64,000 nt of DNA from a virus, in IMG/VR virus record IMGVR_UViG_3300033143_003851, positions 1 through 64,000 of that record; one strand, given 5' to 3'. A program made the translations under genes and the position numbers. This document shows, in pieces, positions 3,001-48,873 of the stretch (positions within the stretch are counted from its first letter, which is position 1; each line of letters begins with the position of its first letter). The notes beneath the pieces are model-generated. The model was not told where the DNA came from and did no database searches. It was given only the letters and a program-made list of their open reading frames with translations.

Positions 3001-3484
3001 TGGGGGTAAAACAATATATGCCACTAACTCAACAGATGGGAGTGGAAATACTAATTGGTTGTTTGCTGGCGGAAGTACTTGGTATGGATTAACGCCATAT
3101 CAACTGACAGATGGCGTCAATCCAATTGTGCTGACAATCTCAGGTGATGTAACTATGACCTTAGGTTTAAAATACACAGAATATAGATTTCAGGCAGGTA
3201 ATAAACCAACGGTAGATCAGAATATTGTGGAAGTTAGGGGCAAGAAAAATATTAAAATTAGTTTAAGGTGCCATGATTTTACAGTTGGGTCAACTAACTT
3301 ACAGCAATTAGAAGAGTGGTTCCGAGAAGGGACCGCTGTGGATATTATAGATAAGCACTCGGGTAGCGGAATACAATTCTATTTTTACCAACCTAGTAGT
3401 TGGCGAATTACAAAACTGGCCCGCCAACTTAGAGTTGGTATTAGTAGTGTGGTATTTACAGTATATCTTGAGGAGGCAAGTTGA
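2..3484 (+). CDS. Large virion protein (5'-truncated): beta-helix/adhesin-like body with a C-terminal distal-tail (Dit)-like domain
   Basis: Frame is open from the window edge (TTC CAC TTT...GTG at 23). T/G/S/D/N-rich beta-solenoid-type repeats; last ~120 aa differ in composition; lies directly before the hub gene. Confidence 0.65.
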   Translation, partial: FHFDRGYVQDGGTMVFGAHAHIIDSGWYVDGSGAGGTVTQGTATLTCDGTGGNTKEFVIDHANGQVYADLVFGGAAYIIRGDESTIVSGGAAVGFATTVNIDIQSGLILKDAYIDTFSNGAIISTTGAAQFTMTLSGTVAQDFCGAGLLGDITGCNTTYTGDVVSDEITLTANLSCLDIHINTVTLDTDTFDITTADACNINDDGHLKTAADAAGNSWTFTDHFTCAGGIVTITVSSGGGFTWNMATSKYIIGAGGSDSTFTSTGTTGNEVSIVWAVANSANDFSWFSNVTMIYTDFDKPDIVMLRDTVADVTYCDATNINGSGWYFQSTTITAFNNNTGAGVRGASFAMSTTGDIHDCTFTGSAGDVCFYYTTSATVEMTDTTLTNTTVNLDVTSSGSGNFFILDNEASNVLRFWGVGSTSEQTVHNGSSTVIMYTNVDDGAYGRLTNLTVNSEMTVGGGVIIESGSTVTHSSNYIYLNTTSKIDNQGTFIIATTTTAGFSGRLAVGTIEWDGNAPEFTGFTGTYTFGYGGIRDGPDFDTNDIVITTGDTGGTIVINRNIDWHTLTIAASDTIETPNNGGAQTINFTDDIDISGTLQLGKGTITAAVTSNISNNKNITVQSGGSFITVGNNSFDVDIVWATGNGGAIDNYGTLTLDYVDIDYVSYIRLRPSSVIDIDNSVILGDNFGLGYVLYTTSSTVTWTKLDNTTISGATTALVIQAAGVSIIDLIHTCTFTGSGSYDVKFNSVGGTLELINCDNDGAAGYLNVYITNSGVSDDRAGISGSLVILYGTLTTSDLTYGDWSGASSLNIYPSTNGVNALVTADATCTTHHITIQSSQVIQVSGTITLSTTGTTTNSGTFRCLDGMVYGPSSGAHKWSGTAPYIGYDHANVPTVEFKFMDFATNSITVDTVHAGVKLVTSGNISWYILNIQIDDSWYHQDDATTITWTSGQTSTIYAGGSAFVNGTSGNHVTWTGAGHVIDMLGTYIFDYLTVADSDASGGKTIYATNSTDGSGNTNWLFAGGSTWYGLTPYQLTDGVNPIVLTISGDVTMTLGLKYTEYRFQAGNKPTVDQNIVEVRGKKNIKISLRCHDFTVGSTNLQQLEEWFREGTAVDIIDKHSGSGIQFYFYQPSSWRITKLARQLRVGISSVVFTVYLEEAS

Positions 3485-9400: not shown

Positions 9401-10728
9401 GATATATGTATATTCCTGCAACTCCTCAGGCATCTGTTATCAGAACTATGATGGACACAGGGTCCGACTTCTTTGAGCCATATAGCTTCGGACATATGAG
9501 CCTGTATAAAATAGATTTATCTCCAGCTGCTGCTGATAAATATGGTGAGTTGTATACAGGACTTAAATACAGCTTATTAAGCGGAGATAGTTATATGATA
9601 TTAGATGAAGAATATCAACCAATAACTGGAATCCCAAAAGTTCAAACAGGTATGGTATTTGGGTTATCTGTTGGCAATAACCCAGCAGATGCCAGAGATA
9701 CTGGAAACAGCGGAGATGTTCAATATTTTCAAGTTGACCATGCAGAGATGTATCCTAGACAATCTACTGAAACATGGTATGGATATAGTGCTCCCCAGTC
9801 ATTTAACGACACCGAAATTATTGGTATAACTAATAGTCCTAGTACGTGGACGGGCTGGAAATGGGATATTAGTATAGACGCTGCCTGCACATGCGACTTA
9901 GAAGAAGACTTAGTATTTAGAAGCGACAGACGAATTAAACTATATGCTACAAACGTAACTGGTAGAGAATCTGCTATAGTTAATAGGGGCAGAATAGCCG
10001 ACAGACAAACTGTAAGAATATATTTTAAAGTAGACAGTGAAAACGCAAACTGCACATTTGATATAGGAGAAGCAAGCGGTTCCCTTAACAATATTCAAAC
10101 AAGAATTAGTAGTGGAATGATTCAAATATATGATGGTAACGGAGCTGCGTGGATTGATATATATCAAATTACAGCCACCACAAAAGACAACTGGTTCAAG
10201 TTAGATATAGAATTAGATTATAATAGAGGAGCCAGAGTATATTATGAAATATTAAATACAACAACTAGTGGCTCATCTGATTGGTATAGATACACATTTT
10301 CATTTACTGAGCTTAAGACAATTAAAATTGCAGCAGATGGAAACAACTCTAATGCCACCACATTATATGTTGGAGATGTGTCCCTCTTTGGAGGAGACAC
10401 ATCAGGGAGCACTAAGACATATGTTCATTTAGCTGACACAAGCACCATTACATATACAACTTCTAATTATGTATTTAAATATATGTCAGAAAGAGGGGTG
10501 GCAGACTTTGTGTGGGTTAATCCATATGTTGGTTTGAAACAGGGACACAAGGCAGATATAAGTATGCTGTATCAGAAAGGGGCAAACTATACTGTTACAT
10601 ATGCTAAAGGTCATGGAGTTTGTTTAGTTAGGAGTTTGTTGTCTGACATTTCTCCTGACTCACCTATAAAGATGCGAGCAGGGGAAAAAACAGTTCTCAC
10701 TCAGGATATTCAACTAGTGTTTACTTAA
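3481..10728 (+). CDS. Giant tail-tip/baseplate hub protein (2415 aa) with inserted carbohydrate-binding/LamG-like modules
   Basis: Hub-like N-terminus (IFKG..., DAIEQLC..., SRVIVVG); several Trp-rich beta-sandwich segments; split tail-fibre collar-like motifs; last gene of the tail module. Confidence 0.7.
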   Translation: MMTLIDIDNFRYYFGQSPNQYIYSTNFDTTKVEVMEYVDTWEIHRDNNGHDYLYVTVNNPNNYFQDATYGRPIDFSYGVEFKYITSQETIDEAESGWTSQGGAQLGTPTADKNILVEGTASQRYDVTGTVNAGTATISKTSLSVSIVSGYSVEVWIRSSTALDAADLSLKTYSGSYSLEETLDSLNDIKVNEWTRLRFEDTTKSYTMTRLDIYPNATPTWTSGDKVYIDKALLVKTVKTIFKGELNPIDFNSGAKKNMLKLYARGAGKYAMENIMSRDYLAKDFKYIEDIIIDIVDNLTSLGESTGYNIDIYAPVSGSDVAIASVDAGDKHIVDRDFRFRNVSPNDAIEQLCTYARIGYYFHADATTGGLRLTLKSRSTDTADHTITADNFHIGKIKFKEYNDNTVSRVIVVGKDGISATQTNKVALDAGYTTTKVLEKGGLTTVHECAEAAHYEIIKNSSNDDIIETTLNPNNTDIGDDFLFVEPYDVFSITDNDVGLSADKYNIVTYMFRCSSIFDINATFGDTYKTHWLRFYEMMQDQEKDSTMESVPIHYRTTAATIDIDYNYHTDTFGTDTTDVTSKSAGRREMTKNISDQFIVGLEGSGFRYALVKDGANFLQEKAEVLTNVVITLDDSNKLVRTYLGYDWTNPYGVSKDMDYVYPVIEEVTELTQDITKGDNEVVVRSAVGGNTANKPFTISYRNEAKVVWVDGNNFAIDADDYDIFLDGETIQIQYADGTTDEIDINMSNAEKLANVIERDGGSSGGAPTVGSTVYVEGTEECYVSSISYTNNEDTITIDTAGPSSAVLTRAIQAGAKVYKYFITGFENDDALTGPVTVTASSTETVYFVVLLTSDTTTSSYNKSYVTKEGLLYIANQIIAGPDGNGNREENNVQKLYGAIGDSTTALSYDWSWQQNNTNITMELDGAWGATYQPDIVVGSDTVHATPVPSGGQTTPTKFKAATLAQADDYWNNYEVVFTSGNNDGERRKIIDWTQSGGVIEVGSPWPSFPDAGDSFYIEPPIQVGDYIYYDSGDNYDGVSGSETKTMFLKVLGFTGGPPKTTIEVEANNRTGTIATGTSITLIANGELSSEINRINSSVAGVLQGDTDSTYHIKIVTDISATQSGEATSSGAATGEYTEITEAGVFTEDSNIDSDLQYYLGDVSWSNEEVALGYGDDPYNNMTQSNAVDSENNALAPRSVDMTDAYNICYVSGSTGNQYYPIRGYMLRAGDLTSDVNKESLEWLLGNEFNYSRVVPGSALNSVYDGVAKPNAITGWGEAWFYGTYGPGLAIPQLSGGADSTNVATIVSAYNAIQIYEFVIPREFDAADVKKMTFHWAGVASNAIETYIWQQSSREWVDLPLKSSRGFSASNILDNNTNYFYGKSTKSDDMSKTITTDGKIFIMLVSYPLTGEFGKIYTDFAFANISTDKINFNQGSGKYRKGIDYYYDRTNDPEYIWWDYVDPIEHVDSISSLEGVADDRASFILVPSNLDLYVKGDYIYLENSVGTIYSTVVLEKYSDRLIIDGTSINEADLAVNDKIYLLRSENNKKIDIHGKTYHKDIPNKTNISDSYPTLHSDESVSLYEGFENGGDGDTVSTDNTNLNSVTGTVTFDDTYVFGPKSDMGAKIDNGEEVRLTASTTTSHNVASVDVYTTSGGAGAGVSYVALLNSSGTVKAGLRFSKTNTDIEVYDGTSWQTPDPAFIWQHGQWYNITIMWTTTEAIYFVNGIAISETLTSGAVWSASGATVASFSAGNSATTINMYIDNMYVGRGPTTKFVFKSEGASSFAEATHNKRGFLQYAPSELVVVDGASGDKYSSLNTYIDGGIVRAAVIEYIDTTYDKIHLSIINTDRYSDQTDITSRSGGMTPFAGPIDTGDIDLDLDGGEIGDNLNIICDARTPAISHHGVAIGDTYYGAAPAWKTFNTGGGATKKYILTSRFANFKVSSISDGASDWIVELWTGPGDGAGGIANFGYLSGYMYIPATPQASVIRTMMDTGSDFFEPYSFGHMSLYKIDLSPAAADKYGELYTGLKYSLLSGDSYMILDEEYQPITGIPKVQTGMVFGLSVGNNPADARDTGNSGDVQYFQVDHAEMYPRQSTETWYGYSAPQSFNDTEIIGITNSPSTWTGWKWDISIDAACTCDLEEDLVFRSDRRIKLYATNVTGRESAIVNRGRIADRQTVRIYFKVDSENANCTFDIGEASGSLNNIQTRISSGMIQIYDGNGAAWIDIYQITATTKDNWFKLDIELDYNRGARVYYEILNTTTSGSSDWYRYTFSFTELKTIKIAADGNNSNATTLYVGDVSLFGGDTSGSTKTYVHLADTSTITYTTSNYVFKYMSERGVADFVWVNPYVGLKQGHKADISMLYQKGANYTVTYAKGHGVCLVRSLLSDISPDSPIKMRAGEKTVLTQDIQLVFT

Positions 10729-10749: not shown

Positions 10750-10926
10750 TTACCCCAGTAACATTTTATTATGAGCAATATCTTTGTTTAGTTTTTGTCG
10801 TTGTTTAGTTTGAAAGGCTAGTTGCTTTTTTAATCTACACCTATTACAACACCTATAATAGCCTTCTCCATCTGGTTCAGATAAAAACTCTATATTACAA
10901 TCATCGCATTTCACTCTAGCTGGCAT
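10750..10926 (-). CDS. Small Zn-finger protein (58 aa; not in ORF track)
   Basis: MPARVKCDDC...RCCNRCRLKK; two CxxC pairs. Confidence 0.6.
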   Translation of the reverse strand: MPARVKCDDCNIEFLSEPDGEGYYRCCNRCRLKKQLAFQTKQRQKLNKDIAHNKMLLG

Positions 10927-12875: not shown

Positions 12876-13019
12876 TTATAAACCACAACTACCGCCCCTA
12901 CAGTATGGATCATAGATACAATTGTGGTCCGTTAGACACATGCAACAGAGCCACGCATCACAATGCACACATAAATATAGTTTTATATTTTTTATATTAC
13001 ATTTTTCACAAGCTAACAT
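12876..13019 (-). CDS. B-box-like Zn-finger protein
   Basis: CEKC-x9-CVHC-x4-CCMC-x3-H; GGAGGT RBS before MLAC. Confidence 0.55.
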   Translation of the reverse strand: MLACEKCNIKNIKLYLCVHCDAWLCCMCLTDHNCIYDPYCRGGSCGL

Positions 13020-13115
13020 TAACAATACCTCCTTATTATCCATGTAGCAGGACATGTTTGACATCGCCATACTCCATCATATCCTTTACTCATCTCTTCA
13101 GTACAACCAGGACAA

Positions 13116-25187: not shown

Positions 25188-25599
25188 TATTAACCACCTT
25201 CATCCATGCTTCATCTGGGGTATCTGCTATAAACCATATACCAATCGCATCACCGCATTTGCAATCACAAGGACCCTCTACTCCATAGTCCATTAGTCGA
25301 TAGTTGCCATTGATTTCCCACAACATTTCCATATAATTATTGTCAGAAGGGAGATATAATGGATTATGTTTAAAACTTATTAGCCTGGTAATAGTATCTT
25401 CAGTGCCTTCCCAAGGAGACGGACCAATGATAATATAGTCATCATCTCCCAACATAAGAAAGTATCTGATTTCAGAATCATCCTGACCTTCCGTATAATA
25501 TAAACCAAAATCTTTCTCTTTCCACCTATGCTCTCCATAAACATCTCTAACTTTCTGAGCAATCTCAATTTCTCTATGGTTGCTTGCGATGGTTTCCAT
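25180..25599 (-). CDS. Hypothetical protein, paralog of 29380-29739
   Basis: Shared REIEIA.KVR, L.LPS...YM.MLWEI and TP.EAWMKVV blocks. Confidence 0.7.
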   Translation of the reverse strand: METIASNHREIEIAQKVRDVYGEHRWKEKDFGLYYTEGQDDSEIRYFLMLGDDDYIIIGPSPWEGTEDTITRLISFKHNPLYLPSDNNYMEMLWEINGNYRLMDYGVEGPCDCKCGDAIGIWFIADTPDEAWMKVVNNV

Positions 25600-25775
25600 C
25601 ACAAGCCCCATCCTTCTCTAGTGTGATTAAGCATACCGTCTTTACCAAACACCGTGCTGTAGATATTGCCATATCTACAGCTTTTGCACACACTACTTCT
25701 TTTACTTGTCCCGTACTTACAAAGTTTGCATTTTCGTTTACGCCTTTTAGATTTTCTGCTGTTCCAAGATGCCAT
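25599..25775 (-). CDS. Basic Zn-ribbon protein (58 aa; not in ORF track)
   Basis: GAGGTGG RBS; KRKCKLC-x10-CKSCRYG; TGATG coupling. Confidence 0.6.
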   Translation of the reverse strand: MASWNSRKSKRRKRKCKLCKYGTSKRSSVCKSCRYGNIYSTVFGKDGMLNHTREGWGL

Positions 25776-26202: not shown

Positions 26203-26484
26203 CTAACCACCAGCATGTTTACTCATAAGTCTTCTAACCTCTTCGGCTTCTGAATTACTAACAACAACAACTTTGTTCCGCCTAGCATATGACTCAAAGT
26301 CCCTAAGCTCATCCTCTGCCAACACAATCATCCTTTGAGCATTAGACCTGATAGTTGCCAACTCTTCATCAGTTAAGTCCCTGGCCTCTTCAAGCACAGC
26401 TTCAAGCACCACATAACAATCCTTTTTCTCATACTCTCCCGTGCTTATGGTGTTGCCCATACTAACTTTAATCGAATATGTCAT
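26203..26484 (-). CDS. Small phage-type hypothetical protein
   Basis: VSMGNTISTGEYE beta-hairpin followed by a helix. Confidence 0.6.
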   Translation of the reverse strand: MTYSIKVSMGNTISTGEYEKKDCYVVLEAVLEEARDLTDEELATIRSNAQRMIVLAEDELRDFESYARRNKVVVVSNSEAEEVRRLMSKHAGG

Positions 26485-26737
26485 AAATAACCAACTCTAT
26501 TTAATATAGATCCTTCAACATATGGGGGAACCTTACTGCACTTAGGACACACCCAATCTCCACCTGTATCTGTTGTAGTGTATATGCAATATATACTACA
26601 ACTTGGACATTTATCTCGTCTCATAACAACCACCAGAAAGTAGCAGCACACATAGCAAACAATAAGATGAAAATATTTAGTGGCATTTTCATCTCACCCT
26701 ATAAAATTGTTCTTCTCCCATGTTTAGTCCTCTGTAT

Positions 26738-30470: not shown

Positions 30471-31373
30471 TCATCTCTTTACCTCAATATCTCTACCAGA
30501 ACTAGTGTTAATAAGCCTGATATTTTTATCATCGAAGATAACAAATCCTTTAGTCCACTTAGGAAACTTTTCTGTGCTCTGTTTATACTCCATGTTAGCT
30601 GAGTCGCACAGACAACCCATATCAATTACGTGAAATGCTCCACTGTGAGACATAGTATATGTAAGGTGGTGCTGGTGCCCAACAATAACGTTTTCATGGT
30701 ATGTCTCAGCAATAAAATTACCAAGCCTACCTCTGATAAGGGAGAATTTCCTTGGGTGGCAAACTCGCCACCGCTCTCCTATAGTATCAACAAAGAACAT
30801 ATGGTCAATATCTACCGCCTTAATTTTCCGCCCAAACTCATCTACGGCAAGAGACAGCATCTTGTCATATGATACTCCAATACTCCTGGACATCCTCTCA
30901 TCGTGGTTCCCTCGAATCACATAGATCTGGTCAAATACCGAGAGGGCATCTTCAAACATGACAATAGCCATGTTAATCTCTTGCTCTAGTGGGATTGTCG
31001 GGTGGTTGTGGTGAAACTTACTAATCCTCTCACAGTCTAATGTATCTCCACCAAGCACCAGAGTTGGTTTAGTATATTCTTTAGCGTGCGACAACACGCT
31101 GGCCCAACTGTCTTGACACATATATGGGATATGCATATCGCTGACCATAAAAACAGTGGACCCTTTAATCTCAAATGTCTTAAATTTGTTCTTAACTGGG
31201 CTGATGTAGAACATCCCACTAGGAGATTCCTTGACGCTAATCCCTGTTTCTTTCTTAATTGTGCTCAAATATCTTTTCACAGTATCTGGTTTGACACCCA
31301 GATATTTAGAGAGGAAAGTCATATTTCGGGCTTTCCTCTGGATAATATCTACCATTTCTTCATATCTATTCAT
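30471..31373 (-). CDS. HTH-fused calcineurin-like metallophosphoesterase
   Basis: N-terminal HTH (LSKYLGVKPDTVKRYL); SDMH, GGDTLD, GNHD, CHP, GHQH. Confidence 0.88.
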   Translation of the reverse strand: MNRYEEMVDIIQRKARNMTFLSKYLGVKPDTVKRYLSTIKKETGISVKESPSGMFYISPVKNKFKTFEIKGSTVFMVSDMHIPYMCQDSWASVLSHAKEYTKPTLVLGGDTLDCERISKFHHNHPTIPLEQEINMAIVMFEDALSVFDQIYVIRGNHDERMSRSIGVSYDKMLSLAVDEFGRKIKAVDIDHMFFVDTIGERWRVCHPRKFSLIRGRLGNFIAETYHENVIVGHQHHLTYTMSHSGAFHVIDMGCLCDSANMEYKQSTEKFPKWTKGFVIFDDKNIRLINTSSGRDIEVKR

Positions 31374-33327: not shown

Positions 33328-34116
33328 TTACATTTCCAATAGTTTTTTCTGTGATGCATCACAATCATTACAAACATCGAACTCATTTTTAGTCTTCTCA
33401 ATTAGTCCTGTATCCCAACAAGATGGACAACTCACATATCCTGTACTATAATCTTTATCACAGCTTTTATGGAAGCACCTATCACAAATATCTCCAAGCT
33501 GATCCACTGTGTCTTCATCACAATAGGCACAAAGATATCTATCCTTTTCTGGGACGGTTTCTGACTGCTCAACTAATACAATGTTAGTTGGACAATCTGA
33601 ACATATTGCCATACTATGAGCATCGCTTTTCACATGCTTATAGCACACGGATCTACAGCAAGAACTACAAACAAATGAAATTTCCCCTTCGCAGCCTTCA
33701 ATTTGACACAAAAATCCTGTATCAATATCATCTCTAAGTCTTTGTGAGTTAGCCAAAACAAATTTAGATGCGCTGTCTACAGACGTAAGGTCATCTAATG
33801 CATTAGTAATTTTTTTATGACCATGAATTGTTTTTATAATTATAGATGGAGTATAGTGAGGCAACTCATGTGCTACCTGATGAAACAACACCCTCAATGC
33901 TGTAAAGTAGTTACAGCATTTTATATGAGTCTCCATCTCACGAATAACTCCAAGGGCAGTATATACAATACCAGCCTCTTCTTTTTCTCGATGATGTGTA
34001 TCACACAGAAAGAACACATTGTCAGCAGTAGCCCACTTATGGGTTCCTAGATCATCACAACCATCATTACCACAAGGCTCTACAGCAACCACAGGTGGCG
34101 ATTCTGTCTCAGACAT
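33328..34116 (-). CDS. Multi-Zn-finger protein (AN1/B-box-like knuckles)
   Basis: CGNDGC..LCDTH; CQIEGC..CSSC..CYKH..CSDC; CAYC..CDRC; CPSC..CNDC; start probably MSETES. Confidence 0.65.
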   Translation of the reverse strand: MSETESPPVVAVEPCGNDGCDDLGTHKWATADNVFFLCDTHHREKEEAGIVYTALGVIREMETHIKCCNYFTALRVLFHQVAHELPHYTPSIIIKTIHGHKKITNALDDLTSVDSASKFVLANSQRLRDDIDTGFLCQIEGCEGEISFVCSSCCRSVCYKHVKSDAHSMAICSDCPTNIVLVEQSETVPEKDRYLCAYCDEDTVDQLGDICDRCFHKSCDKDYSTGYVSCPSCWDTGLIEKTKNEFDVCNDCDASQKKLLEM

Positions 34117-35035
34117 CAGAATCTCCACCGTTTGACACATGCCAGTCCATAATAATTCTGCTATAGAGATCAAGCTTTGTCTCCATGAGACCTGGGGCAC
34201 TATTCGTTTCGAGGACAACAAACTCACCATCTTCTTTTCTGATAACATCAATTGCTGCAATCTTTAGTCCAATTGCTTCTGAAGCTCTGTTACATAGAGT
34301 TTCAAGCTCTGACCACGCAGTAAACCTGTCTGGATCTCTGCGACTATGACGATAGCCATTGTCAAATGCTCTAATTTTGCTCACAACATCATAGAAAATT
34401 TCAAAGTAAAGAGTAGTATGTTCAGCAATATACTCATTATAGTACTCCATATCGTGGATTTTTTGATCCAGATATACCATACTCCCATTCACCATATGAG
34501 CTCTATACTCTGTGTCGCTGGGAACCCATTTCATAAGAATAGTTTTATTATCCCTGTCAGATCTTGGTAACATATTATTACTAGTAATCTTATTTGCTCT
34601 GGCAATTCTGGTGCCAGATCCTCCATGATGAGAGTTTGGTCTCATAATAATAATATCATTACCCTGCTCTCTTAACCAGTCAGTGGGCACAACTCTACTG
34701 GTAATAAACTCTGGAACCGCAATATCAGCATCTCTCAGCTTAGCTAGCATAACATCCTTTCTTCGGCTGTTGTCAATACTGCTGATGGTATTAAGCTCAT
34801 TAGATGGGTTAACATATCCTACTAAAGGGTGTCTGGACCCCCACCTTACAAGATTAAATTCGTTTTCACGGGTCCATACTTTAAGGCGACGACTTACAGA
34901 GTCAGTATATGATCTGCTATTGTGGTTAAGGCCATAGATATGATCTCCAACACCCATGTCAGATATTTTTAAACTTAGTCGTCTACCTGTCCCCGCCATG
35001 CTTTTACCAAACAAAACGATGAGTTTTTTGCCCAT
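34109..35035 (-). CDS. ATP-grasp ligase (RimK-like, phage type)
   Basis: VRWGS, RPNSHHGGSG, TEYRAH, AAIDVI, VLETNSAPGL. Confidence 0.9.
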   Translation of the reverse strand: MGKKLIVLFGKSMAGTGRRLSLKISDMGVGDHIYGLNHNSRSYTDSVSRRLKVWTRENEFNLVRWGSRHPLVGYVNPSNELNTISSIDNSRRKDVMLAKLRDADIAVPEFITSRVVPTDWLREQGNDIIIMRPNSHHGGSGTRIARANKITSNNMLPRSDRDNKTILMKWVPSDTEYRAHMVNGSMVYLDQKIHDMEYYNEYIAEHTTLYFEIFYDVVSKIRAFDNGYRHSRRDPDRFTAWSELETLCNRASEAIGLKIAAIDVIRKEDGEFVVLETNSAPGLMETKLDLYSRIIMDWHVSNGGDSDV

Positions 35036-36072
35036 TACTTTTCCTCCATTTCTTTTAGTGGTTCTGTAATTGTCATCCTACACTTATAACACGCTTTAAT
35101 ACTACTAATTTTATTATCTACCTTGCACCTTTGACATTTGGCAATCATCTCTCCAAATGACTTTCTATATGTTTGAGACCACATCTCGTAGCCTACAATT
35201 GCATCTATGTTTTTAACGCTATGTATTTTTCGTTTAAGAGATTTACCAGTACATACCCCAGTAGTAATCTTCGGGGTTATAGTCGTCGACTTCGTCGCCT
35301 TCGACACAGGTGGGGTTTCCGCCCCGCTGCGAGGGAAATCACTACTATACCCCCCACTGTATACAGAGGCAGGCTTTGTAAGCTTGTCCCCAAATACAAC
35401 TGTAGGACCAATTTCACAGTCTAGCAGGGCCATTGTCTTACTTGGAAAATTCCATACTTCTCCAAGATTCTGCATCATAGTTGGGATTCTAGATGCATAT
35501 ATCCAACCACCGTTTTCTAGTTTCAATCCTTGAAAGTCTCCATATGAAACATATACATATGTGCTTTGGTGTTCGTCATCATCTTCTACTTCTTGCCACA
35601 AATATACTCCAGTTCCGTATATAGGGGCATAGATTCCCAACTCTGCAGTCAAAATTGCCATAATCATAGAGTCAGATGAGAAGTGTAAATCTGCCAAATC
35701 ATAGTCATACCCAATGGCCAGACTGAGAATATGTTGGTCATATCCTCTCCAGGTGCCATTATGAGCAAAAACTACTTCTCTAGTTTCGCAACTCTGAGCA
35801 GATATATGAAATGGGTGGCAAAGAATATCTTCTTTACCGCCTATAGATGCGATTCTAGTGTGAAAGATAAAATCCTCATCTCCAAAATGTTTTGATGAAT
35901 CAAAGCATTCTTTGACAGTCATTTTTAAAGCCTTGTCGACATAGGCTTCTGTCCCCAGAAATCCACCAATTCCATTACCGTGCCCTCCACCTGTCTTTTC
36001 AAGAGCTTTAAACAGGTTAATCATATCATCTTCGGCTGTAAATTTATGAGATACTAAAGCTAGCCTGCACAT
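35035..36072 (-). CDS. Class II (Ntn) glutamine amidotransferase-like protein
   Basis: N-terminal MCRL nucleophile, GHGNG, FHTRIAS.G, HPF, AHNG, SDS. Confidence 0.9.
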   Translation of the reverse strand: MCRLALVSHKFTAEDDMINLFKALEKTGGGHGNGIGGFLGTEAYVDKALKMTVKECFDSSKHFGDEDFIFHTRIASIGGKEDILCHPFHISAQSCETREVVFAHNGTWRGYDQHILSLAIGYDYDLADLHFSSDSMIMAILTAELGIYAPIYGTGVYLWQEVEDDDEHQSTYVYVSYGDFQGLKLENGGWIYASRIPTMMQNLGEVWNFPSKTMALLDCEIGPTVVFGDKLTKPASVYSGGYSSDFPRSGAETPPVSKATKSTTITPKITTGVCTGKSLKRKIHSVKNIDAIVGYEMWSQTYRKSFGEMIAKCQRCKVDNKISSIKACYKCRMTITEPLKEMEEK

Positions 36073-36073
36073 A

Positions 36074-37201
36074 CTACCACTCTCCTTGAGTATTGCTCTC
36101 TTTTACTTGCATTTTACTAATGTTTGGTAAATTATCTTTAATTATCTTAATTAGTTGTTTATAAGAAGGAGCATTAATGGTTGTAATAAATTCCTCTTCA
36201 GGGCGATGAGGGTGGTTAGGACTGAAGTCATTATGTTTAGTATCATATGATACATGATTATCAGCATCTGTTTTATTGATATTAATCTTTTCAGTAACAA
36301 CCAACCTTCTGCTAGCCTTAATTAGCTTCTCAATGGCAGATTTTTTAAAACCACCACTTACTGTAACTTTAGCAGGGCCTCTCTCTAGGTCCCAGTTCTT
36401 AAGGATTGATAGCTTATAGAATGTTTTTTTGTTTTCAATCATATCAAAGATAGGGTTAATCCAAGACTCATATCTACTCCAAAGATGACAAGTCTGAAAT
36501 ACCTCTTTAGCTGTATTTACCGTAGGCATGAGGACATCAGTATCAATTGTTCTGAATGCCTCTTTAATTTCATCACCAGAACTACTGATTGCTAATATTC
36601 TACGCAACACAGATTTTTCTCTGAGATATTGGTCAGTAGCTACCCACATCATAGCTAGGGCAGCCTTTGTCATAGTTGGGTGAGTTAACCAGCTACTAAG
36701 TGCCCTATACTCTACATGTCCATCTCCCTTAAACATACGGCTAGTAGAGACCCCTGCTAGATGTCCATAACTACTACTGTTTCTCCTTCTTATGCCCATC
36801 ATCCTATTCTCTACTAGAACGAGCGGAATGCCTATCATGTTATCCATATATCTACATATGTTTTCTCTTTCACCAAGCATGTTATCATTAATATCTCCAC
36901 TGATATGAATATGACCACCAATAACATCTGACCCAATTGCTCCTCCTCCTCCAACAAGCATCCAACCTGGGGGGATGAATCTTCCTATGTCTCGAAGACA
37001 ACCTCGGATCTGTTCCATATGTTCCTCTGGGGTTCCTGTGCCAGGTCTAATTTCAAACACCCGACCACAGTGATCCTGTCCAATTCGTCTAGAGCTTCCT
37101 ATGAAGTTGTGTGCCACAGACAACACAGTATTCACATTACAGTATCTAAGATCATCCTCTTTTACTAACAGTAACTCTGGGTCGCTTCCTATAAGCAGCA
37201 T
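36074..37201 (-). CDS. COOH-NH2 ligase type 2 (phiEco32-like amidoligase, glutamine synthetase/GCS fold)
   Basis: IGSDPELLL, G.D...FEIRP, GGHIH, RR...YG, VEYRALSSW. Confidence 0.88.
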   Translation of the reverse strand: MLLIGSDPELLLVKEDDLRYCNVNTVLSVAHNFIGSSRRIGQDHCGRVFEIRPGTGTPEEHMEQIRGCLRDIGRFIPPGWMLVGGGGAIGSDVIGGHIHISGDINDNMLGERENICRYMDNMIGIPLVLVENRMMGIRRRNSSSYGHLAGVSTSRMFKGDGHVEYRALSSWLTHPTMTKAALAMMWVATDQYLREKSVLRRILAISSSGDEIKEAFRTIDTDVLMPTVNTAKEVFQTCHLWSRYESWINPIFDMIENKKTFYKLSILKNWDLERGPAKVTVSGGFKKSAIEKLIKASRRLVVTEKININKTDADNHVSYDTKHNDFSPNHPHRPEEEFITTINAPSYKQLIKIIKDNLPNISKMQVKESNTQGEW

Positions 37202-37645
37202 TTACTTTTCCTCCTTTAACATATCTTTAACATGATTTATATCTAGTATAAGTTTTTTTAAGTTCCATTTACACACAGTACTATCGTCTAAAATTACCTT
37301 TATTTTTGATGATATTCTATGAATTTTTCCATATATCGTATTTATACCTCTAATACGATTAGAATTAATACTACAGTAATTAGTTTTACTAGATACGTAA
37401 GCTGTTTTAATATGAGAAAAAATGACTCTGTTGGCAGAAGAAAAATGAGTTTCAACCCAACTAAATAATTCTATACTAAGTCTATGAGCTATTGTCTTAA
37501 TATTGGTATTAAATTGCATATCTATCATAGATATAAAACCATATGTGTCCCATAGGCTTTTTAAAAACAGATCTGCCTCAATTATTTCTTCAATCTCTTG
37601 GGTGGTGATGTGCATATAGTTTTTCCCACCTACATATCTCTGCAT
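37202..37645 (-). CDS. Hypothetical protein (AT-rich)
   Basis: Packed ORF. Confidence 0.5.
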   Translation of the reverse strand: MQRYVGGKNYMHITTQEIEEIIEADLFLKSLWDTYGFISMIDMQFNTNIKTIAHRLSIELFSWVETHFSSANRVIFSHIKTAYVSSKTNYCSINSNRIRGINTIYGKIHRISSKIKVILDDSTVCKWNLKKLILDINHVKDMLKEEK

Positions 37646-40234: not shown

Positions 40235-40341
40235 TGGACCTAAGAGGATTCGAACCTCCATTCTTCCTGTCCCTACTCTCCCAGTCTAAGCAACTAAGAT
40301 TTCGAACTAAACAGGATGCTTTTCCATTAAGCTATAGGCCC
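40235..40341 (-). tRNA. tRNA-like gene with a 35-nt insertion in the anticodon loop (identity unresolved: Pro-TGG, Leu-TAG or other)
   Basis: GGGCCTA/TAGGTCC acceptor; GCTT/AAGC D stem; TCCTG/CAGGA stem enclosing 42 nt; GGAGG-TTCGAAT-CCTCT T arm. Confidence 0.75.
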
Positions 40342-43203: not shown

Positions 43204-43624
43204 ACTTTCGCCCTCGCAAACTCATTGATAAGTGATCGAAGAAAAAGAAGAAGATATATTTCAAATTTTTCAACAGCTTTATCATCATAGTCGTGTAATC
43301 CTACTGATGCTTTGCACCACTCTATCCACAATGGGTGTTTTCTTTCGTCTAATATCATTTCAATCCCGCCCTCTTAAGACACACATCACAGCCTATGTTT
43401 GTAGGTCCAATCTCTGTTACTGTGCCACAGTTTGCACAAGTTCTAAGTTTAGACTGTCTTTGGTAGTTGTGCAGTCTTGCTATATAACTACCTATACTCC
43501 ATCCTACATCAGATATAGTGGTTGCTGTCATTATATTACCCTCACAATCTGTCTAACATGTCCGCTAGTGGTAGCGCAACAAATAAAACAATGATAATAA
43601 GTATTACAAAAAACAATTCATCTG

Positions 43625-44014: not shown

Positions 44015-44229
44015 CTATAGATACTCTTAACATGTAGTTCCTCTTTGGTTACAATCTCCCACTCTGGATCGGGCGAAACTAGACCCATAAAGTTATATAT
44101 CTCTGTAACTCTAAGAAGATGCCACTGAGCATGTCCTTCATAAGAGATATACTTATATTTGTGCCTAAATTTCTCTCTGATAGTAATATCTACAGCATCC
44201 TCACAATACAGACAACTCACTGGTGCCAC
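43984..44229 (-). CDS. Zn-finger protein
   Basis: CLYC...IYRCPNCGREL. Confidence 0.6.
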   Translation of the reverse strand: MAPVSCLYCEDAVDITIREKFRHKYKYISYEGHAQWHLLRVTEIYNFMGLVSPDPEWEIVTKEELHVKSIYRCPNCGRELC

Positions 44230-44618
44230 CTTCTGCCACAGGACCAGCAGTCTTCTGGATCATCAGACCCAGCACCACAATCAGGGCAATATTTCGGTAT
44301 CTCCACGACACTACCTAGCTGCGGTATTACCAATACCTTGATAGTCTCATCTTTGACACTACCGCTGTCAGATAGTCGAGATTCACAGCACCAGACACAG
44401 TTACAGTTGACAAAGGGACCATATTTCTCATGGTCTACAACTTTTTGATCTTGGTTGTCAGGGTCAACAATCTTACCAACTACTGCAAAGTCTGTGAGAC
44501 GCCCCTGCTCATCATAGAACAAGACCCACATTGAGTTGGTTTCCTCAATGTATATGAAGTGTCCATCTTTCATAAGTATTCCCCCAGAGGGTCCACATAT
44601 TTTGCAATCTTTACCCAA
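44217..44618 (-). CDS. Zn-finger protein
   Basis: CVWC, YCPDCG, CWSCG. Confidence 0.6.
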   Translation of the reverse strand: MGKDCKICGPSGGILMKDGHFIYIEETNSMWVLFYDEQGRLTDFAVVGKIVDPDNQDQKVVDHEKYGPFVNCNCVWCCESRLSDSGSVKDETIKVLVIPQLGSVVEIPKYCPDCGAGSDDPEDCWSCGRRWHQ

Positions 44619-44773
44619 TACTGTCTCTGTTTAACAGTTATGTCATTTCTGCCCAGAAAAGATATGATATCTTGCACGAAGTCATGCTCAGATATAAATA
44701 ATTCAGACTCAGCATGGTCAGCGTGGATAGACATCAGATATTCCTCCTGGTGGTGGTGGAACAGATGCTGCAT
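44570..44773 (-). CDS. Hypothetical protein
   Basis: GGAGG RBS at the internal MSIH. Confidence 0.4.
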   Translation of the reverse strand: MQHLFHHHQEEYLMSIHADHAESELFISEHDFVQDIISFLGRNDITVKQRQYWVKIAKYVDPLGEYL

Positions 44774-45207
44774 TCATACTTACCCACCCCTTTCTCTTGG
44801 ATGTTCACGAGCTTGTGGATGTTTGGCACCCCACAATCTCTGCACATAAGATTTTTGTTCTCGGTTGAGAAAGGCGAGTGAGGACAGTAGTCTCTGTGGT
44901 CATTAGGGTTGTGCAACCCGAAAGGTTCACCACAGTTCATGCAGACCCAGTGTCTGGATTTGGTCTGAGTTAGGGTACTCACTGCACAGTTGGGACATGT
45001 TTTCATGTCGCAACTACATACTCTGGATCTCTGAAATGCAGCAAGGCTCTGCTGCATTAAATCCAGTTGGTGGTCTGTGAATTTGGCACTAGACAAGATA
45101 ATCATCCTCCATGTACTGCCTCTCGATATCAAGATACCTCTGGATCTCATCTGCACACAGAGGATGGATCTGAAGGGCATCCATGTCTGAAAACATGGCT
45201 TTACCAC
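44734..45207 (-). CDS. Multi-Zn-ribbon protein; start probably MIILSS
   Basis: CPNC, CMNC, CRDC, CSIC. Confidence 0.55.
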   Translation of the reverse strand: MVKPCFQTWMPFRSILCVQMRSRGILISRGSTWRMIILSSAKFTDHQLDLMQQSLAAFQRSRVCSCDMKTCPNCAVSTLTQTKSRHWVCMNCGEPFGLHNPNDHRDYCPHSPFSTENKNLMCRDCGVPNIHKLVNIQEKGVGKYECSICSTTTRRNI

Positions 45208-45785: not shown

Positions 45786-45814
45786 CTATATAAACATTTC
45801 GGTTTGTTGCATCA
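45786..45814 (-). promoter_or_regulatory. Archaeal promoter (BRE CCGAAA + TTTATATA) with upstream TGATGCAA
   Basis: TGATGCAA-CAAA-CCGAAA-TGTTTATATAG. Confidence 0.75.
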
Positions 45815-45847
45815 TCTCCATTTTACATATTTACATGATACCACTAG

Positions 45848-46062
45848 TTCTATACTATGTATATACACTAGTGTATATACACCTAAAGGTGTATATACAT
45901 TCTATACTATAGTTCTATACTATACATATCTTAATAGATATCTATATCTAATACTAACTCTATGTAAGGCACAGAGTTAGAGTTAGAGACAGAGTTAGAG
46001 ACAGAGATCTGTCTCTAACTAACTGAATGACTGACGAAAAACATGGTCAGACGTGGTCAGAC
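45848..46062. repeat. Palindrome/iteron cluster (candidate origin element 1)
   Basis: 3x TGTATATACA; 24-bp perfect palindrome at 45858-45881; 3x TTCTATACTAT; 13-bp inverted repeat at 45993-46020; 2x TGGTCAGAC. Confidence 0.75.
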
Positions 46063-46150
46063 ATAGTATAAGTGCATTAATTTAGATATTTGTAAGAGAT
46101 ATCTAATAATTGCACGGTTTATACATAGAATAAGAGCACAAAAATATAGG

Positions 46151-46170
46151 GTTAAAAAAACAAAAAAAGA
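46151..46170 (-). terminator. Oligo-T terminator
   Basis: TCTTTTTTTGTTTTTTT immediately after the stop at 46171. Confidence 0.6.
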
Positions 46171-47204: not shown

Positions 47205-48098
47205 TCAGGAGATATAGAGGGCGGAACCAGGGGTTCCATCTTTTCTCACAATGACCTTGCCAGTGTTGTTGGCCTTCCTGAACGAAGTGATTTGGGAGTC
47301 GGTGCCATAGCGAGGCAGGTCGGCCCCAGTCTGAATCAGGACCTTTCCAACTCGCCCGAGAGCCTCATTGTAGAAGTTTTTTGAGGAGTTTGCGAGGGCC
47401 CAGTTCCAGGCATCACACTCATCTGAGTGCGTTGCTCTGAGGTGCTTTTTGATGGCCCCCCATTTGTAGCCTGTCAGGTCGCAGGCTGCGAGGATATCAG
47501 TAACCAGACTGATAGTTCGATTCTGGGTGCCTTTCGGGACCTGAACTGCGGGGACCTCGGGTTTTGGGGGTGGAGGTGGTGCCACCTGGTCGAAGTGGCC
47601 CCAGCGAGTATCTTGGGGGGCACTGATCTGGGCCACAATGGTCTTGTTGGGAACCATCTGAGGTTTGTCCTTGATAGGCACGGGAGTTGAGGTGGTAGCC
47701 TCAACCTCAACCAGGCTGTGAGACCCATCTTTCTTCAGGTGGAGGATGAAACCCCCTTGGGCCACGAACTCAGGGGCATATTGCTCCAGGGCAGCCTGTG
47801 AGTATCGCCAGGCTCGGGTCTTGCCCTTGCTCCAGGCCCAGATGGCCTTGAGGACCTTGCCATCATGGTTGCTGATGCGGGAACCGACAACGGTCCCCTT
47901 GCGGTTCTCGTATGTCTTGATTGCATAGGCCCAGGCGGCCTCTACAACCTCACGCTCGGACAGGTCCTCAGGGACCTCAACATCTGTGAAATACCAGTTT
48001 CCCCCATGAGGGGTGAACTGCAGTCCACAAAACAAAACGGGGTTTGGTCCATCACCGAGGGCAATGGATGAGGGGTCAATGGTGTTGTTTGATACCAT
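47205..48098 (-). CDS. First early gene, GC-rich, paralog of 41513-42580
   Basis: GGAGG RBS; promoter; FILHLKKDG, WGAIKKH...KNFY; Pro-rich linker. Confidence 0.75.
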   Translation of the reverse strand: MVSNNTIDPSSIALGDGPNPVLFCGLQFTPHGGNWYFTDVEVPEDLSEREVVEAAWAYAIKTYENRKGTVVGSRISNHDGKVLKAIWAWSKGKTRAWRYSQAALEQYAPEFVAQGGFILHLKKDGSHSLVEVEATTSTPVPIKDKPQMVPNKTIVAQISAPQDTRWGHFDQVAPPPPPKPEVPAVQVPKGTQNRTISLVTDILAACDLTGYKWGAIKKHLRATHSDECDAWNWALANSSKNFYNEALGRVGKVLIQTGADLPRYGTDSQITSFRKANNTGKVIVRKDGTPGSALYIS

Positions 48099-48130
48099 AT
48101 TTGTTTCCTCCAATGGTGAGTAAGTTGGTG

Positions 48131-48150
48131 GTTGTATATAAATGTTTGGT
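48131..48150 (-). promoter_or_regulatory. Archaeal promoter for the first early gene
   Basis: ACCAAACATTTATATACAAC. Confidence 0.65.
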
Positions 48151-48714
48151 GGGATGTCCCATGATGAGGCACCGAGAGTTCTAGGTGCAAGGGGTTAAAA
48201 TGGGGGATATAAGGGAATATTGGTGTCATGAGGGGTGCCAAAAAAGGCGGGTTTTTCGGGGGTTAGTTGGTCAGGGGCACCAAACCATAGGCAGCTGGCA
48301 CTAGTGAGCCTGGAGCTATGGTTGGAGTTGGGGGAACTATATAAAGCCTATGCAATATAGCTAGTGAAAAGACCAACTATGTGTAATATGGCCACCAGTT
48401 GTATAGATATGTGCATATACCGATCCTATAAATATAGGCAACTAGTGTTAGAACTAGTGTATTGAGAATATAGTTCCTAGTATCAGGTCTAGTAACCTAG
48501 TGTATGGGTAGCACTAGTTAGTAACCTGGTGTTAACTAATAAGGGTTTAGTAACTAAACCTCTTCTATACACTGTGTGATCTCTTGAAGAGTCTTCTCAG
48601 AGAGGACCGGTGCCTCGGAGAGACTCGTGGTTTGGAGAGGGGGACAGGGGGCTCTATTTGGGTACTACCTCCACAACATTATAATTTTTCTCAAATCTAT
48701 ATTTCATTGATTGC

Positions 48715-48797
48715 ACTAGGTATATACCTTTAGGTATATACTAGAACATAGTACTACTCTATGTTCTATACTATGTTCTATACTATAGTATATACAC
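48715..48797. repeat. Palindrome/iteron cluster (candidate origin element 2)
   Basis: GTATATACCT-TT-AGGTATATAC; TAGAACATAG/CTATGTTCTA; 2x TTCTATACTAT. Confidence 0.7.
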
Positions 48798-48834
48798 TGT
48801 GCATTAGAACCGTTTACTGTTTTTGATATTTACT

Positions 48835-48851
48835 AGGAAAGGTTTATAAGT
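48835..48851 (+). promoter_or_regulatory. Archaeal promoter of the late arm (probably leaderless first ORF)
   Basis: GGAAAGG-TTTATAAG, about 25 nt before ATG 48874. Confidence 0.7.
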
Positions 48852-48873
48852 AGGCGTAACTAATGATATAACT

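What the first reader, a model, noticed from the sequence alone, without database searches (positions are those of the whole stretch)
33328..37201. Peptide/amide-ligation operon (COOH-NH2 ligase + Ntn amidotransferase + ATP-grasp + multi-Zn-finger) in an archaeal-type virus
Seen: three tightly coupled genes with intact catalytic motifs, followed by a multi-Zn-finger protein. Established: a similar amidoligase/GATase/ATP-grasp cluster is described in phiEco32-like phages and some Firmicutes, with an unproven proposal of cell-wall peptide modification. Inference: in an archaeal host the substrate must differ or the proposal is wrong. Candidates are protein tagging (e.g. glutamylation), coenzyme F420/methanopterin-type tails, pseudomurein/S-layer, or a small anti-defence metabolite. 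The Zn-finger protein may be the adaptor or substrate.
Basis: partly seen in the sequence, partly recalled or inferred. Interest (0 to 1): 0.72.

Follow-up and report, generated by a model that had tools for sequence, protein, structure and literature searches.

The report
Phage-type amide-ligase cassette, orphan virus
A complete but unrelated-to-anything tailed virus carries a divergent copy of the enzyme trio (carboxylate-amine ligase, glutamine amidotransferase, ATP-grasp ligase) known by prediction in phiEco32-like phages since 2009. The product is still unknown, and the claim that the host is an archaeon could not be settled.

Summary
On the minus strand, 33328-37201, lie four translationally coupled genes:
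- a PF14395 COOH-NH2 ligase;
- a stand-alone class-II (Ntn) amidotransferase with a C-terminal zinc ribbon;
- a RimK-like ATP-grasp ligase;
- a 262-aa Cys-rich protein. Its real start is 34116, not 34260.

A fifth coupled ORF of unknown family (37202-37645) precedes them.

The enzyme trio is the known phiEco32-type phage neighbourhood. The ATP-grasp aligns with that of Kuravirus NJ01 (E 1e-16), which has the same gene order. Nine of 12 IMG/VR loci with a ligase relative have the GATase beside it. Four have ligase-GATase-ATP-grasp in the window's order, and at least two loci also carry sigma-70-type genes, so those are bacterial phages. This copy is very divergent: the ligase is at most 32% identical to anything in 1.84 billion cluster representatives. 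It also lacks the Amidoligase_2 and GGCT genes.

The "archaeal virus" premise is not established. PolB and UDG lean archaeal. No murein hydrolase or sigma factor was found, and zinc-ribbon ORFs are many. But no host link exists, the tRNA insert has no bulge-helix-bulge, and ligase relatives in genomes are all bacterial. I put an archaeal host at about 50%. The Zn protein has no relatives.

This scan noted the same cassette before in at least 23 other genomes, one called archaeal.

The parts
37202..37645 (-). 147-aa ORF of unknown family, translationally coupled to the ligase gene (its stop TAA directly abuts the ligase ATG)
   Evidence: No Pfam family. That it belongs to the functional unit is inferred from the coupling only.
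36074..37201 (-). COOH-NH2 (glutamate-cysteine-ligase / GS-fold) carboxylate-amine ligase, family PF14395. The catalytic core is residues 1-270; the roughly 100-aa C-terminal tail is unassigned.
   Evidence: Pfam E 1.6e-29; six-frame search E 1.8e-31. HMMER found 627 relatives at 32% identity or less. All invariant residues are kept.
35035..36072 (-). Stand-alone class-II (Ntn) glutamine amidotransferase or gamma-glutamyl amidohydrolase domain (residues 1-230), a low-complexity linker, and a C-terminal CxxC...CxxC zinc ribbon (residues about 312-333)
   Evidence: Cys2 follows the initiator Met. Weak GATase_4 hit. Invariant C2/R73/N105-G106/D134 shared with ten phage GATases, several of which have the same C-terminal ribbon. 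The fold matches EgtC, GlmS and PurF.
34109..35035 (-). RimK-like ATP-grasp ligase of the phage cassette type
   Evidence: phrog_2599, E 4e-27. tblastn matches in 159 phage records, mostly phiEco32-like. BLASTP E 1e-16 to NJ01 gp096. Weak PDB hits to Ddl and RimK. Conserved K93, G139, E176, R178, K192, D263, E276, N278.
33328..34116 (-). 262-aa Cys/His-rich protein with about three predicted zinc-binding modules (residues 15-42, 136-175, 195-255); no family
   Evidence: Start and coupling come from the sequence. Six CxxC pairs and 7.4% Cys over the longer TTG-started ORF 33328-34260 (310 aa) that the script read. No Pfam or PHROG family; only sub-threshold DZR_2, zf-AN1 and zf-RING_2 hits on fragments. 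No atlas relatives.

Best explanation
This is a functional but strongly diverged copy of the phiEco32-type viral amide-bond cassette. It is expressed as one translationally coupled unit in the early/replication arm of a complete 73.9-kb tailed virus.

Shown here: the three enzyme folds, their intact catalytic residues, their order, and the recurrence of that order in other viruses.

Inferred from what these families do elsewhere:
1. The GS/GCS-fold ligase activates a carboxylate as an acyl-phosphate and joins it to an amine. The carboxylate is most likely a glutamate side chain, as in GshA, YbdK and EgtA.
2. The RimK-like ATP-grasp adds one or more amino acids to a free carboxylate of the same molecule. 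RimK, Ddl and cyanophycin synthetase are the nearest solved relatives.
3. The stand-alone Ntn enzyme keeps the Cys1/Arg/Asn-Gly/Asp glutamine site. It either supplies ammonia from glutamine to amidate an activated carboxylate, or trims a gamma-glutamyl amide as EgtC does.

The product would be a small glutamate-type amide or peptide, or a short peptide tail on a protein, made inside the infected cell. Its identity and target are unknown.

The Cys-rich protein and the upstream 147-aa ORF are lineage-specific accessories. Their role is undetermined.
For: Family and motif evidence for all three enzymes.

Same order in Kuravirus NJ01, namely PF14395 ligase at 65.3-65.6 kb, then Amidoligase, GATase and ATP-grasp.

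Among 12 IMG/VR loci found through the ligase, 9 have the GATase gene adjacent to a ligase gene. Four (L005, L009, L010, L011) have ligase-GATase-ATP-grasp in the window's order, with overlapping stops and starts in L005. A phage contig in a MAG (L048) also has ligase-GATase beside a terminase gene.

The genes are coupled by 1-nt to 8-nt junctions with Shine-Dalgarno sequences.

A gamma-glutamyl cyclotransferase accompanies the cassette in NJ01 and in one IMG/VR locus. This points to gamma-glutamyl chemistry.

The best structural match of the Ntn domain is EgtC, a gamma-glutamyl amidohydrolase that works downstream of a GCS-type ligase.
Against: No member of this cassette has been characterised biochemically in any paper I could find. 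Every catalytic step is therefore inference.

The GATase is below Pfam's threshold and is not found by an HMM of the ligase-linked phage GATases. hhalign gives only 25% probability. Its fold model was built on an alignment with those same GATases and is of moderate confidence (pLDDT 55 overall, about 60-83 in the domain).

The window lacks the Amidoligase_2 and GGCT genes of the phiEco32 version. The pathway may therefore be shorter or different.

The ligase has no tblastn match in 50,697 phage records.
Confidence: 0.7

Rival explanations
1. First reader's reading. The virus infects an archaeon, so the cassette does something other than murein modification. Examples are glutamylation-type tagging of a host or viral protein, with the multi-zinc-finger protein as adaptor or substrate, or a cofactor-tail or anti-defence metabolite.
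For: Archaeal-leaning hints:
- The only NCBIfam hits of PolB are PRK05761 type-B polymerase models, which by my recollection of that family are archaeal. Its best PDB hits are Pol delta and the 783-aa polymerase 5mdn, which I recall as Pyrobaculum PolB. There are no hits to RB69, phi29 or E. coli Pol II.
- The best NCBIfam model for UDG is Arch_udg.
- No Pfam murein hydrolase, sigma factor, DnaB or DnaG appears in any ORF of 100 aa or more. The six-frame Sigma70_r2 search is negative.
- There are 23 small double-CxxC ORFs.
- A tRNA has a 35-nt anticodon-loop insert.
- TerL, portal and capsid-region proteins are unknown to PHROGs and Pfam.
- Cys-rich ORFs also sit inside the cassette in L005 and L010.
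Against: No host link of any kind was found.
- The insert-bearing tRNA shows no bulge-helix-bulge.
- TATA-like boxes are not consistently placed.
- All 80 best genome hits of the ligase are Bacteria.
- At least two of the IMG/VR loci that carry the cassette also encode sigma-70-type factors.
- The ATP-grasp's only named relatives are in phages of Proteobacteria.
- The RNR is nearest to bacteriophage NrdJ.
- Genes use strong GGAGG/GGTGA ribosome-binding sites, which fits Bacillota as well as many Euryarchaeota.
- ORF4 has no significant similarity to the other Cys-rich ORFs.
Confidence: 0.12
2. The original 2009 proposal. The cassette remodels the peptide part of the host cell envelope to block superinfection or to aid lysis or adsorption. 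The target would be the murein stem peptide in a bacterium or pseudomurein in a methanogen.
For: This is the interpretation attached to the phiEco32 cluster in the literature, as cited in PMC10580990 and PMC11318856.

The ATP-grasp's nearest solved relatives include D-Ala-D-Ala ligases.

In Paenibacillus the PF14395 domain is encoded next to the spore-coat gene cotE.
Against: None of the three enzymes has a signal peptide or a recognised wall-precursor-binding domain. The cassette sits among early and nucleotide-metabolism genes rather than lysis genes. The proposal has never been tested. No wall-related gene was recognised in this genome.
Confidence: 0.15
3. The genes are adjacent but do not form one pathway. 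In this view they are independent auxiliary enzymes, and the Cys-rich ORF is an unrelated small regulator like the many other zinc-ribbon ORFs of this virus.
For: The virus is full of CxxC proteins, so one next to the cassette could be coincidence. ORF4 has no counterpart in other cassettes.
Against: Ligase-GATase adjacency occurs in 9 of 12 loci, and the full ordered trio recurs in four unrelated viral loci and in Kuravirus. The stops and starts overlap.
Confidence: 0.05

Closest known systems
phiEco32 / Kuravirus-type phage amidoligase neighbourhood (Iyer, Abhiman, Burroughs and Aravind 2009, Mol Biosyst 5:1636; Pfam PF14395 is named after it). Here it was examined in Escherichia phage NJ01 and Citrobacter phage CVT22.
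   Same: A PF14395 ligase, a class-II GATase and a RimK-like ATP-grasp, co-directional and in the same order. The ATP-grasp is directly alignable (25% identity, E 1e-16). Location is among early and replication genes.
   Different: The window lacks the second ligase (Amidoligase_2, PF12224) and the GGCT-like gene. The genes are contiguous and overlapping rather than spaced by small ORFs. Its GATase is short (345 aa against 562) and of the stand-alone GATase_4/EgtC-like kind with a zinc ribbon. The ligase and GATase are too diverged for BLAST to pair them with the Kuravirus proteins: BLASTP was run against NJ01's annotated amidoligase and GATase, and tblastn of the ligase against all phage records, not against NJ01's PF14395 ORF itself. 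A 262-aa Cys-rich gene is appended.
Uncultured-virus 'long form' of the cassette (IMG/VR loci L005, L009, L010, L011): ligase, GATase, ATP-grasp, then a second ligase paralogue
   Same: An identical ligase-GATase-ATP-grasp order with coupled junctions. The GATases have the same C-terminal CxxC...CxxC ribbon. L005 and L010 have a Cys-rich ORF inside the cassette.
   Different: Those loci have two ligase paralogues, and at least two of them have an ECF-sigma-like gene, so they are bacterial phages. Their GATases are GATase_6/7-type and are not detected from the window's protein by HMM. Their Cys-rich ORFs are not detectably homologous to ORF4.
EgtA/EgtC pair of ergothioneine biosynthesis (a GCS-type ligase plus an Ntn amidohydrolase)
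   Same: A GS/GCS-fold carboxylate-amine ligase paired with a stand-alone class-II GATase-fold enzyme. EgtC is the top structural match of the window's Ntn domain.
   Different: No EgtB, EgtD or EgtE is present. Sequence identity to EgtC is about 14%. The analogy is mechanistic only, not membership.
Amidoligase plus GATase genes reported in a putative Poseidoniales (archaeal) virus, Vyasavirus brisbanense (PMC11706807), and in OM43 phages (PMC10580990)
   Same: A viral ligase plus class-II GATase, with a calcineurin-like phosphoesterase nearby. The window has one at 30471-31373.
   Different: In the OM43 phages the ligase is Amidoligase_2 (PF12224), not PF14395. The Vyasavirus group lacks a DNA polymerase, unlike this virus. 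Its archaeal host assignment is itself uncertain, because it carries a murein amidase.

Membership tests
phiEco32-type phage amide-ligase neighbourhood (PF14395 context) | A COOH-NH2 ligase scoring above the PF14395 gathering threshold | tested here: met
   103.4 bits against a cut-off of 25; 104.2 bits in the six-frame search.
phiEco32-type phage amide-ligase neighbourhood (PF14395 context) | The ligase keeps the family's invariant acidic, His and Arg residues | tested here: met
   G5 D7 E9 G41 D43 E50 R52 G95 G96 H97 H99 Y145 G146 E164 are invariant in 36 sequences including the query.
phiEco32-type phage amide-ligase neighbourhood (PF14395 context) | An adjacent class-II (Ntn, Cys1) glutamine amidotransferase gene | tested here: met
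   MC start, invariant R73/N105-G106/D134, and a fold match to EgtC, GlmS and PurF. Caveat: the Pfam hit is below threshold.
phiEco32-type phage amide-ligase neighbourhood (PF14395 context) | An ATP-grasp ligase homologous to the one in the phage cluster | tested here: met
   phrog_2599, E 4e-27. BLASTP E 1e-16 to the NJ01 ATP-grasp. Matches in 159 phage records.
phiEco32-type phage amide-ligase neighbourhood (PF14395 context) | Co-directional arrangement in the order ligase, GATase, ATP-grasp | tested here: met
   The same order is seen in NJ01 and in L005, L009, L010 and L011.
phiEco32-type phage amide-ligase neighbourhood (PF14395 context) | Accessory Amidoligase_2 (PF12224) and GGCT/AIG2-like genes, present in the type example but not in all members | tested here: not met
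   Six-frame searches of the complete genome find neither. Most IMG/VR loci also lack them, so I treat them as accessory rather than defining.
phiEco32-type phage amide-ligase neighbourhood (PF14395 context) | A defined product or substrate | not testable with these tools
   No biochemical study was found.
RimK (ribosomal protein S6 glutamate ligase) family | A match to the RimK ATP-grasp model over its whole length | tested here: inconclusive
   Pfam RimK gives 21.4 bits against a cut-off of 21, but only over profile positions 129-173. PDB hits to RimK and Ddl have E about 0.01 and cover the C-terminal motif only. The S6 substrate cannot be tested.
Class-II glutamine amidotransferases with a synthase partner | A fused or demonstrably bound acceptor (synthase) domain that receives ammonia | tested here: inconclusive
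   No fused domain other than a zinc ribbon. Partnership with the ligase remains undemonstrated.
Archaeal tailed viruses | A direct host link or relatedness to a classified archaeal virus | tested here: not met
   No nucleotide or protein match of the cassette DNA, TerL or ligase in 50,697 phage and archaeal-virus records. No PHROG for the TerL, the portal-sized ORF or the other late-arm proteins scanned. A spacer or provirus search was not possible with the caps left.
Archaeal tailed viruses | Archaeal-type informational genes or signals (PolB clade, BHB tRNA intron, TATA/BRE promoters) | tested here: inconclusive
   PolB and UDG lean archaeal. The tRNA insert has no BHB. TATA-like boxes are not consistently placed. 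Sigma-70-like promoters and intrinsic terminators are not enriched either.

The most novel reading that the evidence does not exclude
An archaeal tailed virus of a wholly unsampled lineage has captured the bacteriophage amide-ligase cassette. It has coupled it to a multi-zinc-finger protein with cross-brace RING/PHD/HIT-like modules, which recruits a host or viral protein for ATP-dependent peptide tagging (for example glutamylation followed by amidation). That would be a virus-encoded, ubiquitin-independent protein-tagging system working in an organism without murein.
Probability: 0.1. Interest if true: 0.7.

Novelty: new member of a known kind. Interest (0 to 1): 0.35.

Why it matters
The phiEco32-type cassette is one of the most widespread viral enzyme modules with no known product. 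A minimal, tightly coupled three-enzyme version gives a compact construct for finding that product by co-expression. It has no second ligase and no GGCT. If its host proves to be an archaeon without murein, the long-standing cell-wall hypothesis for this module could not be general. As it stands, the finding adds a divergent member and a cleaner test object, not a new kind of system.

Tried and rejected
Searches for relatives of the cassette
- The search for homologous proteins with the ligase and the search for related loci with the single ligase returned only the query or nothing. The 36-sequence alignment was too diverse for pattern search.
I used IMG/VR, GTDB and JGI pattern scans instead.
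- blastn of the cassette and tblastn of TerL and the ligase against the phage collection gave no match.

Host inference, none of which gave taxon names or a consistent signal
- PolB relatives. Their neighbours are mixed: ERCC4, bacterial RecA, sigma-70.
- RNR relatives.
- tRNA blastn, which gave 75-81% identity to many bacterial phage tRNAs.
- The atlas look-up of TerL.
- TATA-box counts.
- The genome search cannot draw relatives for a virus record or for metagenome loci.

Structure and binding
- The single-sequence fold of ORF4 had pLDDT 34 and was not used.
- Complex prediction of the ligase (1-300) with the GATase (1-235) returned no verdict, score 0.00.

Considered and dropped
- A graspetide/RiPP system: there is no small precursor gene with a core motif, and the ATP-grasp is RimK/Ddl-like rather than microviridin-type.
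- DNA hypermodification: none of the known pathway enzymes was recognised.


Full report
**What the record is.** The window is bases 1-64000 of a 73,903-bp IMG/VR virus record. The record has 114-bp direct terminal repeats and CheckV rates it complete. Genes lie in three arms: plus strand 1-10.7 kb, minus strand 10.9-48.1 kb, plus strand from 48.9 kb.

The late arm encodes a large terminase and a tape-measure protein, so this is a tailed virus.
- The terminase is not recognised by Pfam or PHROGs. The ESM atlas places it with Terminase_6N clusters at 0.98-0.99.
- The tape measure matches PF10145.

The minus-strand arm encodes:
- PolB, a class-II RNR, ThyX, dCMP deaminase and thymidylate kinase;
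- a family-4 UDG, a PD-(D/E)XK nuclease and two N6/N4 methyltransferases;
- a calcineurin-like phosphoesterase and six tRNAs.

**The observation.** Four minus-strand genes fill 33328-37201.

Gene 1 (36074-37201) is a clear PF14395 COOH-NH2 ligase at E 1.6e-29. An exhaustive HMMER search of 1.84 billion cluster representatives found 627 relatives, none above 32% identity. In an alignment with 35 of them the query keeps every invariant residue.

Gene 2 (35035-36072) starts MCRLAL.
- Pfam gives only a sub-threshold GATase_4 hit. An HMM of ligase-linked phage GATases does not find it, and hhalign gives 25% probability.
- When aligned with ten such GATases it shares all thirteen invariant columns. 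These include Cys2, His71-x-Arg73, His-Pro, His-Asn-Gly 104-106 and Asp-Ser 134-135.
- These correspond to the nucleophile, glutamine-binding and oxyanion residues that I recall for PurF-type enzymes.
- An AlphaFold model built on that alignment has domain pLDDT of about 60-83. It matches EgtC, the GlmS glutaminase domain and PurF at Foldseek probability 1.00.
- The model leans on the alignment used, so I count the fold as corroboration, not independent proof.
- The C-terminus carries a CxxC...CxxC ribbon, which several of the phage GATases share.

Gene 3 (34109-35035) is an ATP-grasp ligase.
- It matches phrog_2599 at E 4e-27.
- tblastn finds matches in 159 phage records, most of them phiEco32-like coliphages.
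- BLASTP to the NJ01 ATP-grasp gives E 1e-16.
- The Mg/ATP motifs are conserved.
- Weak PDB hits go to Ddl and RimK.

Gene 4 is mis-bounded in the finding. The ORF from 34260 begins at a TTG inside gene 3. The credible start is the ATG at 34116, which overlaps gene 3's stop (ATGTCTGA) behind GGTGGAG. That gives a 262-aa protein with six CxxC pairs.

The junctions between genes are a 1-nt spacer, a TAATG overlap and an 8-nt overlap. An upstream 147-aa ORF (37202-37645) abuts gene 1, so the coupled unit has five genes.

**Is it the known cassette?** Yes.
- In Escherichia phage NJ01 (Kuravirus, phiEco32-like) a PF14395 ligase lies at 65.3-65.6 kb. It is followed on the same strand by an annotated amidoligase, a 562-aa GATase, two small ORFs, the ATP-grasp, and further on a GGCT-like gene.
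- Citrobacter phage CVT22 shows a comparable set.
- Of 12 IMG/VR loci retrieved through the ligase, Pfam counts 16 PF14395 ORFs, 9 GATase_6, 3 RimK, 1 GGACT and 2 sigma-70 factors.
- Local HMMs show a ligase immediately upstream of the GATase in nine loci.
- They show the full order ligase, GATase, ATP-grasp in four loci: L005, L009, L010 and L011. Each of these has a second ligase paralogue downstream.
- L005, L009 and L010 have an ORF with ECF-sigma-like sequence just upstream of that second ligase. Pfam counted two sigma-70 hits among the 12 loci, so at least some of these are bacterial phages.
- A phage contig binned in a MAG (L048) has ligase-GATase beside a terminase.

The complete genome here has no Amidoligase_2 and no GGCT. 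This is a minimal three-enzyme version.

In cellular genomes the family is bacterial as far as sampled. All 80 best GTDB hits are Bacteria, mostly Paenibacillaceae, Thermoactinomycetaceae and Syntrophomonadaceae. In Paenibacillus mesophilus the domain is the C-terminal half of a protein encoded between cotE and mutS, with no GATase nearby.

Points leaning archaeal:
- PolB matches only PRK05761 type-B polymerase models in NCBIfam, which by my recollection of that family are archaeal. In the PDB it matches Pol delta, a 783-aa polymerase (5mdn, which I recall as Pyrobaculum PolB) and herpesvirus polymerases. It does not match RB69, phi29 or Pol II.
- The best UDG model is Arch_udg, though only marginally ahead of the general family-4 model.
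- No murein hydrolase, sigma factor or DnaB/DnaG-type protein was recognised in any ORF of 100 aa or more.
- There are 23 small double-CxxC ORFs.
- One tRNA carries a 35-nt insert in the anticodon loop and still scores 56 bits on the Rfam tRNA model.
- The structural proteins are orphans.

Points against, or neutral:
- The insert shows no bulge-helix-bulge in optimal or suboptimal folds.
- TTTAWATA boxes are about twice as frequent as a mononucleotide expectation (41 against about 23), but most lie inside coding sequence rather than in intergenic gaps (my reading of the positions against the ORF map). Few sit at a promoter-like distance.
- Sigma-70-like promoters and intrinsic terminators are at shuffle level.
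- Genes use strong GGAGG/GGTGA ribosome-binding sites, as in Bacillota and many Euryarchaeota.
- RNR and tRNAs resemble those of diverse bacteriophages at low identity.
- The nearest PolB-bearing metagenome contigs share 29-34% identity, share almost nothing else, and have mixed neighbours.

I put an archaeal host at roughly one half. An uncultured bacterial lineage whose phages are unsampled is the main alternative.

**How it probably works.** The steps and the shown-versus-inferred split are set out under Best explanation. Two points bear on the direction of the chemistry:
- The Ntn enzyme has no fused synthase domain. The structural match to EgtC and the presence of GGCT in the fuller cassettes favour gamma-glutamyl chemistry.
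- The location among early and replication genes suggests action inside the infected cell.

**The Cys-rich protein.**
- By my own reading of the sequence it has about three zinc-binding modules, two with cross-brace-like C4HC3 or C-x2-C...C-x2-H spacing.
- Tools give only sub-threshold DZR_2, zf-AN1 and zf-RING_2 hits on fragments.
- It has no atlas relatives and no usable model.
- Cys-rich ORFs also occur inside two of the four long-form cassettes, but without significant similarity to ORF4.
- Because this virus is full of CxxC proteins, the association may be incidental.

**Literature.**
- Papers that cite Iyer et al. 2009 repeat a proposal of cell-wall modification or secondary-metabolite synthesis. 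None reports an experiment. The 2009 paper itself is not held.
- Amidoligase plus GATase has been reported in a putative Poseidoniales virus. That virus lacks a polymerase and its host assignment is doubtful.
- This scan's own notes record the same cassette in at least 23 other genomes. One was called an archaeal (methanogen) virus with a duplicated ligase. Those notes are unchecked.

**Verdict.** The cassette is a divergent, minimal member of a known but uncharacterised viral module. The archaeal framing is unproven, and so is a role for the zinc-finger protein. Interest is modest: 0.35.

Noticed in passing
whole record; e.g. window 10750-10926, 12876-13070, 25599-25775, 26481-26651, 43355-43531, 44217-44618, 44734-45207 (all minus strand): About 23 ORFs, nearly all short (39-157 aa), carry two or more CxxC pairs. 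Many lie in what look like intergenic gaps. This is an unusually zinc-ribbon-rich proteome (Cys 1.9% overall).
   Followed up: partly
window 2-3484 (+) together with genome 68943-73901 (L014:5044-10002, +), and window 3481-10728 (+): The last ORF of the record is open at its 3' end (1653 aa) and the first ORF of the window is open at its 5' end (1160 aa). They probably form one giant gene across the 114-bp terminal repeat. A 2415-aa ORF follows. Neither has any Pfam domain.
   Followed up: no
window 40235-40341 (-): A tRNA with a 35-nt insert in the anticodon loop. Rfam tRNA scores 56 bits and ARAGORN calls Leu(tag) with an intron, yet the variable arm is short and the acceptor stem has G3-U70. 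No canonical bulge-helix-bulge appears in the folds.
   Followed up: partly
window 45786-46170 and 48114-48873: Repeat-rich non-coding stretches flank the early region between the divergent arms. They hold repeated TATAGTATAGAAC units and GTATATACAC-type palindromes and may be an origin or a promoter cluster. A TTTATATA box lies 21 nt before the start of ORF 47205-48113.
   Followed up: no
L015:5455-6786 (Paenibacillus mesophilus) and most of L015-L094: In Bacillota the PF14395 ligase domain is the C-terminal half of a protein of about 440-560 aa whose N-terminal domain is unassigned. In L015 the gene sits between the spore-coat gene cotE and mutS, with no GATase or ATP-grasp nearby. This suggests a chromosomal, possibly sporulation-linked role, distinct from the viral cassette.
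   Followed up: partly
L005:7343-7999, L009:6843-7430, L010:7448-8017: An ORF whose sequence looks ECF-sigma-like lies inside the long-form cassette, directly upstream of the second ligase paralogue. Pfam counted two Sigma70_r2 and two Sigma70_r4_2 hits among the 12 loci.
   Followed up: no
window 36074-36078 / 37202-37206 and 35035-35040: Two gene junctions of the unit are nearly identical: GGAGGAAAAGTAA followed by ATG, or overlapping it. The preceding proteins therefore both end in ...EEK.
   Followed up: no
window 30471-31373 (-): A calcineurin-like metallophosphoesterase lies 2 kb downstream of the cassette. The same enzyme class is listed beside amidoligase and GATase genes in OM43 phages and in Vyasavirus.
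   Followed up: no
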